A DNA stretch of 1,240 nt, taken from the NCBI GenBank assembly GCA_000004985.1, contig GG739484.1; one strand, 5' to 3'. Each line of letters begins with the position of its first letter. Positions within the stretch are counted from its first letter, which is position 1. Source of the stretch: Naegleria gruberi (taxonomy: Eukaryota). Positions 1 through 1,108 of this stretch are shown here, piece by piece. The translations under genes were made by a program, and so were the position numbers. The notes below the pieces were generated by a model that was not told the origin of the DNA, did no database searches, and was given only the letters and a program-made list of their open reading frames with translations.

Positions 1-10
1 ACATATTGTT

Positions 11-23
11 TTGTGTCTTTCAG
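11..23 (+). other. Candidate 3' splice acceptor: polypyrimidine run ttgtgtctttcag ending in the nematode-consensus TTTCAG|G
   Basis: Seen in sequence: T-rich tract 11-20 then cag at 21-23. The exon-like open frame starts right after it. Confidence 0.4.
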
Positions 24-109
24 GTGATGAATGTAATCCTTTAAGATTAGCAATTTTTGTCAATGATTATGAAGGTGAAGATTCACAGGTTGCATTGGAG
101 CTTGAATAG
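24..109 (+). CDS. Partial CDS: probable terminal exon of an upstream gene (phase-1 start). It encodes the C-terminal tail ...DECNPLRLAIFVNDYEGEDSQVALELE followed by a stop. Product unknown.
   Basis: The frame with codons at 26-28 stays open for 27 codons to TAG at 107-109. It is preceded by the TTTCAG acceptor. The other two frames stop within 7 codons. There is no start codon, so the gene body lies outside the window. Openness over 27 codons in AT-rich DNA is only modest evidence. Confidence 0.3.
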
Positions 110-261
110 CATCATCCACCAATCCAAATTGTTTTTTTAATTCCTCAATATCAGTTGCACCATCATATGTTCTTCACAAAATGAAACAAGCTGATAGTGA
201 ACACATCAGATTCTGCAAATACTGGAACATTTGATTTTCAACTCTTTGTTATTATTTTGGT

Positions 262-267
262 TTTATT
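262..267 (-). terminator. Polyadenylation signal AATAAA for the minus-strand small ORF, within the context TTGTAAATAAAA
   Basis: Plus-strand tttatt at 262-267 reads aataaa on the minus strand, about 42 nt downstream of the TAG at 309-311. The same 12-mer context occurs downstream of the paralogue. Confidence 0.5.
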
Positions 268-308
268 TACAATGAATGCCTAGGGTTCAAAATGATGAGT
301 TGGGGAGA

Positions 309-524
309 CTACCACTTTTTGAATTTTTTGTTTCTCATTTCCAAAGTGTTATGTGATTGAGATTTGGAAGTTTTGCTTGTTTCACTTCCAATAGAATTCA
401 ATGTTTTGTAATCAATTAAATTTCTTCTTCTTGTTCCACCCACAATATTATCCAATGAAATTTCGGAATTAAATTGTGAAGTGTTATTGGAGGAATTATA
501 CATATTTCTCCTTGTTGAGACCAT
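309..524 (-). CDS. Small intron-less ORF, 71 aa: Ser/Asn-rich N-terminus, central motif DNIVGGTRRRNLIDY, Lys-rich C-terminal tail (KKFKKW). Putative pseudosubstrate-type (PKI-like) kinase-inhibitor-like protein. Function unverified.
   Basis: Complete ATG (522-524) to TAG (309-311) frame, retranslated by hand from the sequence. The start context is agaaATG. AATAAA lies 42 nt past the stop. It has a paralogue on the opposite strand with the same motif. Typical for a compact nematode-like gene. Confidence 0.6.
   Translation of the reverse strand: MVSTRRNMYNSSNNTSQFNSEISLDNIVGGTRRRNLIDYKTLNSIGSETSKTSKSQSHNTLEMRNKKFKKW
408..449 (-). repeat. Left copy of an inverted imperfect repeat: motif-coding segment AATATTGTGGGTGGAACAAGAAGAAGAAATTTAATTGATTAC, about 71% identical to 869-910
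   Basis: Codon-by-codon comparison: GGAACAAGA and ATTGAT are identical in both copies. Differences cluster in the RRR/RHR and L/N codons. Confidence 0.7.
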
Positions 525-533
525 TTTCTTATT

Positions 534-551
534 GTTATTTTCTTTTGTTGG
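534..551 (-). promoter_or_regulatory. Conserved 5'-leader element. Minus-strand reading is CCAACAAAAGAAAATAAC, 10 nt upstream of the ATG at 524.
   Basis: Matches CCACAACAAAACAAAATAAC at 699-718 upstream of the + gene, with 17 of 18 aligned positions identical. This indicates the duplication included the leader. Confidence 0.4.
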
Positions 552-574
552 TTTTCATTAAATTTCTTTCATCA

Positions 575-591
575 AAATATTAATATAAAAA
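575..591 (-). promoter_or_regulatory. TATA-like A/T element (tatattaatat / tataaaaa) about 55-65 nt upstream of the minus-gene ATG
   Basis: Seen in sequence only. Low specificity in AT-rich DNA. Confidence 0.2.
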
Positions 592-609
592 TTCAAACTT
601 CTTGTGATG

Positions 610-624
610 AGTGGAAAATCCACT
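610..624. repeat. Perfect 6-bp-arm palindrome AGTGGA-aaa-TCCACT near the symmetry axis of the gene pair. The half-site AGTGGAA recurs at 644-650.
   Basis: Seen in sequence. A candidate dimeric transcription-factor site, but a palindrome of this size is expected by chance a few times per kb. Confidence 0.25.
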
Positions 625-664
625 AAAAATCGGAATCATAAAATTAGTGGAATCATCATGGAAA

Positions 665-674
665 TAAATAGATA
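665..674 (+). promoter_or_regulatory. TATA-like element AAATAAATAG about 70 nt upstream of the + gene ATG
   Basis: Seen in sequence. The position is appropriate relative to the ATG at 740. Low specificity. Confidence 0.25.
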
Positions 675-698
675 ATTGGTATCGGATGATGATATTTC

Positions 699-718
699 CA
701 CAACAAAACAAAATAACT
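699..718 (+). promoter_or_regulatory. Conserved 5'-leader element CCACAACAAAACAAAATAAC, 22 nt upstream of the ATG at 740
   Basis: Counterpart of 534-551 (see above). Confidence 0.4.
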
Positions 719-739
719 AAATAACAAATACTAATCAAA

Positions 740-1033
740 ATGCCAGCTAGAAATACTTCATCAAATTCTTCATCTTCCGAAGATAGAATTCCAACAAAAA
801 CAGTCTGGTCAAGATCTAAACCAATCGATTTATCTAAAAGATTACCATTATTTGATATTGATACATCTAATATTATTAGTGGAACAAGACATCGTAATAA
901 TATTGATTATCATCATGCAAATTTAAATGGTAAACAAATTTCAGTGAAAAGATCTTCTAAAAATTCAATTGAAAAGAGAGCTAAACAATCAACCACCACT
1001 AATAAGAAGATTACCAAATCGAAAAAGATGTAA
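740..1033 (+). CDS. Small intron-less ORF, 97 aa: Ser-rich N-terminus (NTSSNSSSSED), central motif SNIISGTRHRNNIDY, Lys-rich C-terminal tail (NKKITKSKKM). Paralogue of the 309-524 ORF. Putative pseudosubstrate-type (PKI-like) kinase-inhibitor-like protein. Function unverified.
   Basis: Complete ATG (740) to TAA (1031-1033) frame with start context aatcaaaATG. AATAAA lies 46 nt past the stop. Shares a 14-aa core and overall architecture with the divergent paralogue. Confidence 0.65.
   Translation: MPARNTSSNSSSSEDRIPTKTVWSRSKPIDLSKRLPLFDIDTSNIISGTRHRNNIDYHHANLNGKQISVKRSSKNSIEKRAKQSTTTNKKITKSKKM
869..910 (+). repeat. Right copy of the inverted imperfect repeat (motif-coding segment AATATTATTAGTGGAACAAGACATCGTAATAATATTGATTAT)
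   Basis: About 71% nucleotide identity to the reverse complement of 408-449. Confidence 0.7.
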
Positions 1034-1078
1034 ATTACACTGAAATATTGAATCACTTTTAAATTATCCTAATTTGTA

Positions 1079-1084
1079 AATAAA
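1079..1084 (+). terminator. Polyadenylation signal AATAAA for the + gene, in the context TTGTAAATAAAA (1074-1085)
   Basis: 46 nt after the TAA stop. The identical 12-mer context occurs after the paralogue's stop. Confidence 0.55.
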
Positions 1085-1108
1085 AAAAGAAAATTGAGAT
1101 TTATTTCG

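What the first reader, a model, noticed from the sequence alone, without database searches (positions are those of the whole stretch)
262..1085. Whole-gene inverted duplication: head-to-head paralogues with related leaders, CDS and 3' UTRs
Homology covers the whole gene unit, not only the motif codons (408-449 vs 869-910, about 71% nt identity). The 5' leader element is shared: CCAACAAAAGAAAATAAC vs CCACAACAAAACAAAATAAC. The 3' UTR segments are related: atcattttgaaccct-agg vs atcacttttaaattatccta. The poly(A) context TTGTAAATAAAA is identical at nearly the same distance from each stop (36 vs 40 nt). The two copies point outward from a 215-bp spacer, so the locus is a large imperfect palindrome with an axis near 632. 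The coding regions have diverged greatly in length (71 vs 97 aa) outside the core. This points to an old duplication with selective retention of the motif and the regulatory ends, or to ongoing gene conversion limited to those patches.
Basis: seen in the sequence. Interest (0 to 1): 0.55.

Follow-up and report, generated by a model that had tools for sequence, protein, structure and literature searches.

The report
Head-to-head pair of CHZ-motif mini-genes
The window, from a Naegleria amoeba, holds two small real genes that point away from each other across a 215-bp shared promoter and encode related, basic, disordered proteins carrying a motif that resembles the histone-binding CHZ motif; the pair is an old duplication kept across the genus, not a DNA palindrome.

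Summary

**What holds up**
- The window comes from a Naegleria gruberi-like genome. Gene B has 88-95% identical relatives, including two N. gruberi predicted proteins.
- Gene A (309-524, minus strand, 71 aa) and gene B (740-1033, plus strand, 97 aa) are true paralogues. Family profiles align with hhalign E 9e-10 over 46 columns, covering two collinear motifs: a CHZ-like motif and S.NT.E.R.
- The head-to-head pair is conserved in N. fowleri (three contigs), N. lovaniensis and an unnamed relative. Gene A is not annotated in the N. fowleri and N. lovaniensis assemblies.
- Both genes are under purifying selection: dN/dS is 0.08-0.23 for A in all but one comparison (0.55 for window vs L009) and 0.09-0.25 for B.

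**What does not hold up**
- At DNA level only the 42-nt motif patch is clearly above chance.
- The shared leader and the shared TTGTAAATAAAA are generic Naegleria signals (A/C-rich leaders; UGUA plus AAUAAA), not evidence of homology.
- There is no sign of gene conversion and no meaningful cruciform potential.

**Function (inferred)**
The products are probably small, basic, disordered proteins that bind H2A(.Z)-H2B, co-expressed from a bidirectional promoter with a conserved central element (619-634). Interest is modest.

The parts
309..524 (-). Gene A CDS, 71 aa including the stop codon: MVSTRRNMYN...KKFKKW. Small, basic (pI 10.5), S/T/N-rich protein.
   Evidence: ORF. Orthologues of 68-74 aa sit head-to-head with gene B in L006, L007, L008 and L009. 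tblastn gives E 1e-14 to 1e-16. dN/dS is 0.08-0.23 in most pairs.
408..449 (-). Gene A CHZ-like motif, NIVGGTRRRNLIDY (residues 26-39).
   Evidence: Pfam CHZ PF09649 scores 21.1 bits, E 2e-4, below the gathering score of 23.3. The motif-only hhalign against the B family gives E 8e-12.
327..356 (-). Gene A second conserved motif, SHNTLEMRNK (residues 57-66).
   Evidence: SHNTLE and RN are invariant in all five A orthologues; the residue between them is M or L and the last is K or R. It aligns with the B-family motif S(K)N(S/T)(I/L)EKR.
261..272 (-). Gene A poly(A) signal context, TTGTAAATAAAA: UGUA overlapping AAUAAA (262-267), 36 nt after the stop codon.
   Evidence: I18. N. gruberi uses AAUAAA with an upstream UGUA (PMC11529991).
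525..739 (.). 215-bp spacer between the two start codons. Inferred to be a bidirectional promoter plus both 5' leaders.
   Evidence: Orthologous spacers are 179-272 bp. Promoter function is inferred, not shown.
534..550 (-). A/C-rich leader element of gene A, CAACAAAAGAAAATAAC.
   Evidence: I5. Leaders of the same kind occur at unrelated Naegleria genes, so this is a generic feature.
619..634 (.). Conserved central spacer element, TCCACTAAAAATCGGA. Candidate shared promoter element.
   Evidence: It is conserved in the alignment of nine spacers, including N. fowleri and N. lovaniensis. The pattern TCCASNAAAAANNGGA occurs only in the A-B spacer, once per locus, in 6 of 9 loci.
619..651 (.). Short inverted repeat, TCCACTAA (619-626) and TTAGTGGA (644-651), around the midpoint.
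   Evidence: 7-8 bp stem, 17-nt loop, -6.5 kcal/mol, z = -1.8. Only the TCCA...GGA core is conserved beyond the gruberi group.
698..717 (+). A/C-rich leader element of gene B, CCACAACAAAACAAAATAAC.
   Evidence: I5. Conserved in L001, L002 and L004. This is the generic leader type.
740..1033 (+). Gene B CDS, 97 aa including the stop codon: MPARNTSS...KSKKM. Small, basic (pI 10.9), predicted disordered.
   Evidence: ORF. It has 88-95% identical relatives, including N. gruberi XP_002668573 and XP_002674900, and orthologues in N. fowleri and N. lovaniensis. dN/dS is 0.09-0.25. The AlphaFold2 model has pLDDT 59 and pTM 0.15.
806..844 (+). Gene B motif 1, WSRSKPIDLSKRL (residues 23-35). Absent from gene A apart from a possible remnant at its N-terminus (MVSTR).
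   Evidence: Conserved in the B family and in the wider family as W.RS.P.D..KR.
869..910 (+). Gene B CHZ motif, NIISGTRHRNNIDY (residues 44-57).
   Evidence: Pfam CHZ scores 25.9 bits, above the gathering score of 23.3. It aligns to yeast Chz1 IDTSNIItSGRRTRgKVIDY and to rice OsChz1.
950..985 (+). Gene B motif 3, RSSKNSIEKRAK (residues 71-82).
   Evidence: Conserved across the B family. It aligns with gene A's SHNTLEMRNK.
1074..1085 (+). Gene B poly(A) signal context, TTGTAAATAAAA (AAUAAA at 1079-1084), 40 nt after the stop codon.
   Evidence: I18. TGTAAATAA is retained after the stop codon in L001, L002 and L003. See also PMC11529991.

Best explanation
The window is a Naegleria (gruberi-group) locus with two real, paralogous, intron-less genes transcribed away from each other from a 215-bp spacer.

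**Origin.** The two genes arose by an ancient duplication that put them head to head. The duplication predates the split of the N. gruberi, N. fowleri and N. lovaniensis lineages. Since then the two copies have diverged independently:
- Gene B keeps three collinear motifs: W.RS.P.D..KR, the CHZ motif I...NI..GTR.R..I[DN]Y, and S.N[ST].E.R.
- Gene A keeps the last two. It looks like gene B without its first ~22 residues and without motif 1.

**Products.** Both proteins are short, very basic, S/T/N-rich and predicted disordered.

**Most likely mechanism (inferred).** The arginine-rich CHZ-type motif docks onto the H2A(.Z)-H2B dimer, as it does in Chz1, HIRIP3 and OsChz1. The two proteins would then be small nuclear histone- or nucleosome-binding factors. 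Their co-expression would come from a compact bidirectional promoter with a conserved central TCCAC-A5-GGA element.

**The other shared patches.** The similar leaders and poly(A) contexts are generic Naegleria expression signals, not relics of the duplication.

**Shown:** gene reality, paralogy, conserved arrangement, purifying selection and motif identity. **Inferred:** histone binding, nuclear location, shared promoter and co-expression.
For: **Taxon**
- Gene B relatives are named N. gruberi, N. fowleri and N. lovaniensis.

**Paralogy**
- BLASTP of A against B gives E 9e-8.
- hhalign of the A family against the B family gives 96.5% probability and E 9e-10 over 46 columns.
- The motif alone gives E 8e-12 and the C-terminal segment alone P 3.7e-4.
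- Window gene A cross-hits gene B of other species without gaps over 46 aa (E down to 6e-7).

**Conserved pair**
- A gene A orthologue lies head-to-head with gene B in L005-L009.
- L002, L003 and L004 keep gene A's start codon.
- P0031 is an over-long ORF that joins the antisense of gene B to an A-type protein.
- The flanking genes differ between loci, so the pair moves as a unit.

**Selection**
- dN/dS is 0.08-0.25 in all but one comparison.

**CHZ motif**
- Pfam PF09649 scores gene B at 25.9 bits against a gathering score of 23.3, and gene A at 21.1 bits.
- All 8 B-family members and 4 of 5 A-family members match at E <= 1.
- The top PDB hits of the family profile are the three CHZ chaperone chains: 6m2m_M, 6ae8_C and 2jss_B.
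- The CHZ motif is required for H2A-H2B binding in HIRIP3, and CHZ proteins bind both H2A-H2B and H2A.Z-H2B (PMC10854748, PMC6544321, PMC7658359).

**Disorder**
- The AlphaFold2 model has pLDDT 59 and pTM 0.15. Chz1 is also unstructured when free (PMC6544321).

**Promoter core**
-.

**Generic signals**
-.
Against: **Weak links to CHZ chaperones**
- Gene A alone is below the Pfam gathering score.
- All matches to solved CHZ chaperones are statistically weak (E 0.02-1), because the motif is short.
- Both proteins lack the acidic helices and the DEF/Y motif that give yeast Chz1 its affinity and H2A.Z preference. They also lack the acidic stretch that contacts H2A-H2B in the OsChz1 crystal.
- They are net basic (K+R 13 and 21; D+E 5 and 7), which is unusual for a histone chaperone.

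**Missing data**
- No transcript, proteome or localisation data were found.

**Limits on the paralogy evidence**
- For the window pair alone, protein similarity outside the 14-aa motif is not above composition (z <= 1). Paralogy beyond the motif rests on family profiles built from few sequences.

**Gene A may be dispensable**
- It is lost or broken in two copies: the deletion in L001 and the nonsense codon in L005.
Confidence: 0.6

Rival explanations
1. The two proteins belong to the small-basic-protein family found here, but they do not bind histones. The CHZ-like motif would be a generic arginine-rich linear motif used for something else, for example nucleolar or ribosome-biogenesis binding, RNA binding or nuclear import.
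For: Most wider-family members score below the Pfam CHZ threshold. The proteins are strongly basic with no acidic region. Matches to solved CHZ chaperones have E 0.02-1. In the OsChz1 crystal the ordered contacts come from an acidic stretch (PMC7658359).
Against: CHZ is the only Pfam family hit. Gene B passes the curated cut-off. The three best PDB hits of the family profile are all CHZ chaperones. Seven consecutive residues, IDTSNII, are identical to yeast Chz1.
Confidence: 0.27
2. The similar patches are kept alike by ongoing gene conversion between the two inverted copies (concerted evolution).
For: Motif-patch identity is 74%, with identical codons at 8 of 10 shared residues. The residue after TR.R matches between A and B in three of four lineages: N/N, K/K and S/S.
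Against: Within-species A-versus-B identity over the motif (0.60, 0.46, 0.48, 0.54, 0.56) is no higher than between species. A and B orthologues each keep their own signature (GGTR versus SGTR) across the genus. The S/S match uses TCT versus AGT codons, which conversion cannot produce. The identical codons are the AT-rich preferred ones.
Confidence: 0.04
3. Only gene B is a functional gene. Gene A is a decaying pseudocopy or a chance ORF.
For: Gene A has no hit among 5.8 billion predicted proteins. It is not annotated in the N. fowleri and N. lovaniensis assemblies. It is deleted in L001 and carries a nonsense codon in L005.
Against: An intact ORF of 68-74 aa sits at the same place in four other loci. 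It keeps a conserved start (MV[SC]TR), motif and C-terminus, with dN/dS 0.08-0.23 in most pairs. The lack of database hits is explained by small ORFs not being called. It is called as a gene in L009.
Confidence: 0.05
4. The locus matters as DNA. It would be a large imperfect palindrome able to form a cruciform or hairpin, acting as a fragile or recombinogenic site, with the ORFs incidental.
For: The layout is symmetrical around position 632. There is a short 8-bp inverted repeat at 619-626 and 644-651. L001 has a 187-bp deletion inside one arm.
Against: The arms resemble each other only in short patches. The CDS flanks are at chance level. The centre folds at -6.5 kcal/mol with z = -1.8, and the whole unit gives z = -2.1 on 20 shuffles. 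The L001 deletion is bounded by an 8-nt direct repeat, not by the palindrome.
Confidence: 0.02
5. A and B are not products of a local inverted duplication. They would be two ancient family members that became neighbours by rearrangement.
For: Gene A is about as distant from gene B (33-39% identity) as family members from other, unnamed sources are. Nucleotide similarity outside the motif is gone, so the duplication event itself left no trace.
Against: The head-to-head pair is the unit found in every locus sampled, with different flanking genes. Local duplication is the simplest origin.
Confidence: 0.1

Closest known systems
Yeast Chz1 (YER030W), the H2A.Z-H2B chaperone and founder of Pfam CHZ PF09649
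   Same: It has the same short motif: IDTSNII-SG-R-R--IDY in gene B against IDTSNIITSGRRTRGKVIDY in Chz1. It is small (153 aa) and intrinsically disordered when free (PMC6544321). The model of gene B is also low-confidence coil.
   Different: Chz1 has acidic N- and C-terminal helices and a C-terminal DEF/Y motif that provide affinity and H2A.Z preference (PMC6544321). A and B have none of these and are net basic. The Naegleria motif is two residues shorter. A and B carry extra conserved motifs (W.RS.P.D..KR and S.NT.E.R) that were not matched in Chz1.
Non-fungal CHZ-domain proteins: human HIRIP3, Arabidopsis AtChz1 and rice OsChz1 (PDB 6M2M)
   Same: They share the CHZ motif at the same spacing as in Naegleria. 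The OsChz1 chain is the best PDB hit of the family profile and aligns without gaps (E 0.021). These proteins bind both H2A-H2B and H2A.Z-H2B, and the motif is indispensable in HIRIP3 (PMC10854748, PMC7658359).
   Different: They are several times larger than A and B (HIRIP3 is 556 aa), with long acidic or serine-rich regions and the motif near the C-terminus. A and B are 71 and 97 aa with the motif central and no acidic region. OsChz1 is the sole CHZ-domain gene in rice, not one of a divergent pair.
Unnamed family of small basic proteins found here (76-128 aa), with longer forms in Acrasis kona (KAL0483377) and Willaertia magna (KAL9642586)
   Same: Gene B shares three collinear motifs with them over nearly its whole length. 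There are 24 cluster representatives at E <= 1e-3.
   Different: The Acrasis and Willaertia forms add an acidic region and a C-terminal domain of unknown identity with no Pfam hit. Genomic arrangement is unknown for all of them except P0031.
Divergently transcribed paralogue or partner gene pairs with a shared short promoter, such as H2A-H2B and H3-H4 histone gene pairs (from general knowledge)
   Same: Two small genes sit head to head, less than 300 bp apart, and the arrangement is conserved across species and copied as a unit.
   Different: Here the partners are paralogues of each other, not two different subunits. Co-regulation has not been shown.

Membership tests
Pfam CHZ (PF09649) motif proteins | Score at or above the curated gathering threshold (23.3 bits) | tested here: met
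   Gene B scores 25.9 bits, E 6.5e-6. All 8 B-family members hit CHZ. Gene A alone is below threshold at 21.1 bits, and 4 of 5 A orthologues hit at E <= 1. Membership is therefore met for B and borderline for A.
Pfam CHZ (PF09649) motif proteins | Residue pattern of the motif: hydrophobic-D/E-x-x-N-I-[IV]...R-x-R...[IV]-[DN]-Y | tested here: met
   Alignments to yeast Chz1 chains 2jss_B and 6ae8_C and to OsChz1 chain 6m2m_M. A and B share NI..GTR.R..IDY.
Pfam CHZ (PF09649) motif proteins | Binds H2A-H2B or H2A.Z-H2B dimers through the motif | not testable with these tools
   Needs pull-down, ITC or NMR with Naegleria histones. Known only for Chz1, HIRIP3, AtChz1 and OsChz1 (PMC6544321, PMC10854748, PMC7658359).
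Fungal Chz1-type H2A.Z-specific chaperone | Acidic flanking helices and a C-terminal DEF/Y motif (a run of D/E followed by F/Y) | tested here: not met
   A has 5 D+E and 13 K+R. B has 7 D+E and 21 K+R. pI is 10.5 and 10.9, and the C-termini are KKFKKW and KSKKM. These are not Chz1 orthologues in the strict sense.
Fungal Chz1-type H2A.Z-specific chaperone | Intrinsically disordered when unbound | tested here: met
   The AlphaFold2 model of gene B with its family alignment has mean pLDDT 59 and pTM 0.15 and is mostly coil. This is a prediction only.
Inverted (head-to-head) gene duplication producing paralogues | The two products are homologous beyond one short motif | tested here: met
   hhalign of family profiles gives E 9e-10 over 46 columns. 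The C-terminal segment alone gives P 3.7e-4. Cross-species tblastn alignments are gap-free over 46 aa. For the window pair alone it is not significant outside the motif.
Inverted (head-to-head) gene duplication producing paralogues | Nucleotide similarity along the whole arms, including the UTRs | tested here: not met
   Only the motif patch (z about 7) and, weakly, the spacer and the poly(A) signal exceed shuffles. The CDS flanks give z = -1.0 and 0.9. Leader and poly(A) similarity is generic.
Conserved divergent gene pair with a bidirectional promoter | Same arrangement in orthologous loci, with both genes under constraint | tested here: met
   Five further loci have A and B head to head with 179-272 bp spacers. 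dN/dS is 0.08-0.25 in all but one comparison. A conserved spacer core is present.
Conserved divergent gene pair with a bidirectional promoter | Both genes transcribed, and co-regulated, from the spacer | not testable with these tools
   No transcript data could be reached. The gene identifiers were not found in the paper library, and no supplements are held.
Concerted evolution / gene conversion between inverted repeats | Paralogues more alike within a genome than between genomes | tested here: not met
   Identity matrix of the 48-nt motif window: the diagonal (0.46-0.60) is no higher than the off-diagonal values.
Cruciform-forming palindrome | Long, highly complementary arms with folding energy well beyond shuffles | tested here: not met
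   (z = -1.8 and -2.1). The longest exact inverted repeat, 12 nt, is matched by 87 of 300 shuffles.

The most novel reading that the evidence does not exclude
A and B would be the founding, paired members of a previously unnamed, widespread protist family of minimal (about 70-100 aa), acid-less, three-motif proteins that bind H2A-H2B or nucleosomes. The family also exists fused to a C-terminal domain in Acrasis and Willaertia. In Naegleria the two paralogues would be kept as a co-regulated divergent pair because they act together on the same histone surface. The matching residue after TR.R in both partners within lineages (N/N, K/K, S/S, the last with different codons) would then reflect co-adaptation to a shared target.
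Probability: 0.15. Interest if true: 0.55.

Novelty: new member of a known kind. Interest (0 to 1): 0.3.

Why it matters
- **Annotation.** A conserved 68-74 aa gene (gene A) is missing from the N. fowleri and N. lovaniensis gene sets examined here. It sits next to a gene labelled only 'hypothetical protein'.
- **Chromatin biology.** These are candidate histone H2A(.Z)-H2B-binding proteins in a deep-branching eukaryote (Discoba). They are reduced almost to the bare CHZ motif plus two further conserved motifs. If they bind histones, they would show what a CHZ motif can do without the acidic regions of Chz1, HIRIP3 or OsChz1. They would also define a wider family that Pfam does not model.
- **Method.** Shared leaders and poly(A) contexts in an AT-rich protist genome are generic signals and should not be read as evidence of duplication.
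- **Overall.** This is an ordinary kind of locus, an old inverted duplication forming a divergent paralogue pair, and not a new mechanism.

Tried and rejected
1. Exact look-ups of both window proteins and of the N. gruberi proteins P0002 and P0004 found no record, so the window's own contig and the N. gruberi reference context could not be read.
2. Gene A alone against 5.8 billion proteins gave no hit.
3. A scan of JGI metagenome contigs for gene B peptides gave no confirmed locus.
4. For the window pair alone, protein similarity N- and C-terminal of the motif is not above composition. It became detectable only with orthologue profiles.
5. The gene-conversion idea was rejected.
6. The cruciform or palindrome idea was rejected.
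7. The bacterial-type promoter and terminator scan is uninformative for a eukaryote: 7 sites found against 8.8 expected.
8. Rfam, tRNA and tandem-repeat scans found nothing relevant. The only Rfam match is a sub-threshold snoRNA hit at 73-121, E 0.29.
9. Literature searches for the gene identifiers and for Naegleria CHZ or H2A.Z chaperones returned nothing specific. No supplements are held for the N. gruberi direct-RNA paper.
10. Pfam on the left-flank peptides gave nothing usable.
11. Pfam on the long Acrasis- and Willaertia-type relatives did not identify their C-terminal domain.
Full report
**1. What is in the window**

The 1240-bp window is 28% G+C. It contains two ATG-initiated ORFs that point away from each other:
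- Gene A: 309-524, minus strand, 71 aa.
- Gene B: 740-1033, plus strand, 97 aa.

They are separated by 215 bp, with the midpoint at 632. Gene B has 88-95% identical relatives. Two of these are 'predicted proteins' of Naegleria gruberi: XP_002668573, and XP_002674900 (locus tag NAEGRDRAFT_69990). A profile search adds orthologues at 60-66% identity in N. lovaniensis and N. fowleri. The window is therefore from a gruberi-group Naegleria. Its exact proteins are not on record.

**2. Checking the observation**

All the listed patches exist:
- Motif patch 409-450 against 868-909: 74% complementary.
- Leader 534-550 against 701-717: 16 of 17 positions.
- Exact 12-mer TTGTAAATAAAA at 261-272 (minus strand) and 1074-1085 (plus strand), 36 and 40 nt after the stop codons.

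Results against dinucleotide shuffles:

| Segment | z | Shuffles as good |
|---|---|---|
| Motif patch | 6.7-7.0 | 0 of 500 |
| Spacer half (axis to ATG) | about 3.1-3.2 | 1-3 of 500 |
| 3' region, local | 2.9 | 2 of 500 |
| 3' region, global | 1.6 | 36 of 500 |
| CDS N-terminal of the motif | -1.0 | at chance |
| CDS C-terminal of the motif | 0.9 | at chance |

The local 3' score is carried by the 12-mer. An exact 12-nt inverted repeat somewhere in the window is common in shuffles (87 of 300). A 12-mer shared between the two 3' regions is not (7 of 2000). The features are real, but nucleotide homology does not cover the whole gene unit.

**3. The shared 'regulatory ends' are generic signals**

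Direct RNA sequencing showed that N. gruberi uses AAUAAA as its main poly(A) hexamer, with UGUA as an enriched upstream element (PMC11529991). TTGTAAATAAAA is simply UGUA overlapping AAUAAA.

In the Naegleria loci fetched here, unrelated genes show the same features:
- Actin ends with TGTAATAAA.
- Actin, PAC1, the vATPase subunit and others have the same A/C-rich, CAACAA-type leaders directly before the ATG.

These similarities indicate function. They are not evidence that the UTRs are homologous.

**4. Both ORFs are real genes, and the pair is old**

The gene B orthologues in N. fowleri (L005, L006, L008), N. lovaniensis (L007) and a Logan contig (L009) were fetched with their flanks.

In every locus, an ORF of 68-74 aa lies 179-272 bp upstream of gene B on the opposite strand:
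- It begins MV[SC]TR.
- It carries SE[IV]S..NI.GGTR.R....Y.
- It ends ...SHNTLE[ML]RN[KR]....

It is not annotated in the NCBI assemblies, but it is called as a gene in L009.

The short metagenomic relatives add the following:
- L002 and L003 keep the reverse-strand start (MVSTRRNMYN and MVSTRTTIYN).
- L004 ends exactly at that ATG.

One database 'protein', P0031, is an over-long ORF that joins the antisense of gene B to an A-type protein. The same pair therefore exists in yet another source.

Nei-Gojobori dN/dS values:
- Gene A: 0.08-0.23, except 0.55 for the window-versus-L009 comparison.
- Gene B: 0.09-0.25.

The flanking genes differ between loci, so the pair behaves as a unit:
- ARPC4 and actin in L005, L006 and L007.
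- A vATPase subunit and a reverse-transcriptase element in L008.
- A different exon in the window.

**5. Are A and B paralogues?**

For the window pair alone, BLASTP gives E 9e-8. Shuffling shows that only the 14-residue motif carries signal: z = 10, against z <= 1 for both flanks.

With orthologue profiles the picture widens:
- hhalign of the A family against the B family gives 96.5% probability and E 9e-10 over 46 columns. The alignment runs from the motif through a second conserved motif, SHNTLEMRNK in A and SSKN[ST].EKR.K in B.
- That C-terminal segment alone gives P 3.7e-4. The N-terminal segments show nothing.
- Cross-species tblastn alignments of A against B are gap-free over 46 residues.
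- In a 28-sequence alignment, gene A's N-terminal TRS is placed on gene B's W[VT]RS, at an equal distance from GTR. This suggests A is a B-like protein without the first ~22 residues. That is an inference.

The two genes are homologous over about two-thirds of gene A. The duplication predates the divergence of the sampled Naegleria lineages.

**6. No gene conversion and no cruciform**

Over a 48-nt motif window, A-versus-B identity within a species is 0.46-0.60. This is no higher than between species. A and B each keep their own signature across the genus, GGTR against SGTR.

DNA folding results:
- The centre (600-665) folds at -6.5 kcal/mol, z = -1.8.
- The whole unit gives z = -2.1 on 20 shuffles.

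**7. What the proteins are**

CHZ (PF09649) is the only Pfam family hit:
- Gene B scores 25.9 bits, above the gathering score of 23.3.
- Gene A scores 21.1 bits, just below it.
- All 8 B-family and 4 of 5 A-family members match.

Gene B shares IDTSNII...R.R..IDY with yeast Chz1.

An exhaustive HMM search found 24 cluster representatives at E <= 1e-3:
- Many are 76-128 aa basic proteins with three collinear motifs: W.RS.P.D..KR, NI..GTR.R..NY and S.NT.E.R.
- Longer forms of 283-361 aa occur, named in Acrasis kona and Willaertia magna. Their C-terminal domain has no Pfam match.

The profile of this wider family has, as its three best PDB hits, the three CHZ chaperone chains solved with histone dimers:
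- OsChz1 6m2m_M: E 0.021.
- Yeast Chz1 6ae8_C: E 0.25.
- Yeast Chz1 2jss_B: E 0.33.

These matches are weak one by one but consistent with each other.

[quoted passage not shown] It also shows that non-fungal CHZ proteins bind both H2A-H2B and H2A.Z-H2B (PMC10854748, PMC6544321, PMC7658359).

A and B are very basic (pI 10.5 and 10.9) and S/T/N-rich. Gene B is predicted to be disordered (pLDDT 59, pTM 0.15). They lack the acidic helices and DEF/Y motif of fungal Chz1 and the acidic stretch that contacts histones in OsChz1. They should not be called Chz1 orthologues. 'Small CHZ-motif proteins, probably H2A(.Z)-H2B- or nucleosome-binding' is the best-supported reading, at roughly even odds for the binding itself.

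**8. The spacer**

Across nine spacers, a central element is conserved: TCCA[CG]-N-AAAAA-N(1-2)-GGA, at window 619-634. The pattern TCCASNAAAAANNGGA occurs only there, once per locus, in 6 of the 9 loci (about 45 kb of sequence).

In the gruberi group this element is part of an 8-bp inverted repeat, 619-626 and 644-651. AT-rich, TATA-like blocks flank it at about 578-588 and 664-671. A shared bidirectional promoter is the natural inference. No transcript data could be reached.

**9. Verdict**

- The 'regulatory ends', 'gene conversion' and 'palindrome' parts are not supported.
- The locus is a new member of known kinds: a CHZ-motif protein family and a divergent paralogue pair.
- Its modest extra value is a conserved gene that is missing from reference annotations, and a wider three-motif family that has no Pfam model.

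Noticed in passing
L001 1-68 and 61-610, against window 317-384 and 564-1113: A 93-94% identical relative lacks window 385-571 (187 bp). The junction lies at an imperfect 8-nt direct repeat, TTGTTTCA and TTCTTTCA. The deletion removes gene A codons 1-47 and its leader, while gene B stays intact. The remaining gene A fragment differs from the window mostly at synonymous sites, which suggests a recent loss.
   Followed up: partly
L005 3612-3728, against L006 3546-3752 (two N. fowleri contigs): Gene A is identical in the two contigs except for one C-to-T change (CAA to TAA) that truncates the L005 copy after codon 38. This could be a null allele, a paralogue or a sequencing error.
   Followed up: partly
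Window 420-422 (gene A) and 896-898 (gene B); the same residue in L005-L009: The residue after TR.R is the same in A and B within three of four lineages: N/N in the window, K/K in N. fowleri and S/S in L009. N. lovaniensis has K/N. The two serines use TCT and AGT codons, so this is not gene conversion. It could be co-adaptation or chance.
   Followed up: partly
P0022 (Acrasis kona KAL0483377), P0028 (Willaertia magna KAL9642586), P0021, P0033, P0034: Longer relatives of 283-361 aa carry the same N-terminal three-motif module, followed by an acidic stretch and a conserved C-terminal domain (...LERLGG...F.VYIIDD...GPYK.S..L) with no Pfam match. From memory the domain looks SMI1/KNR4-like. This was not tested.
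   Followed up: no
L008 4503-6947, minus strand: The second N. fowleri copy of the A/B pair lies directly next to an ORF with endonuclease and reverse-transcriptase domains (Exo_endo_phos and RVT_1). A retroelement may have been involved in moving or copying the pair.
   Followed up: no
Window 1-262: The left flank has two possible coding readings. One is a plus-strand reading after a tttcag acceptor-like site at 17-22 (GDECNPLRLAIFVNDYEGEDSQVALELE, stop at 107-109). The other is a minus-strand open frame (...TYDGATDIEELKKQFGLVDDAIQAPMQPVNLHLHNH, stop near 60-62). Neither has a Pfam hit. A sub-threshold snoRNA Z168 match lies at 73-121 on the minus strand (E 0.29).
   Followed up: partly
P0004 (N. 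gruberi XP_002674900, 116 aa): The annotated N. gruberi paralogue departs from the family after ...SIEKRTK and ends in an unrelated hydrophobic tail. This is probably a frameshift or a gene-model error in the reference annotation.
   Followed up: no
Window 523-549, and L004 1-40: There is a two-copy 14-nt tandem repeat (ATTTTCTTATTGTT) at gene A's start and leader. L004 and L002 carry an extra 8-nt unit here, so leader length varies by repeat slippage.
   Followed up: no
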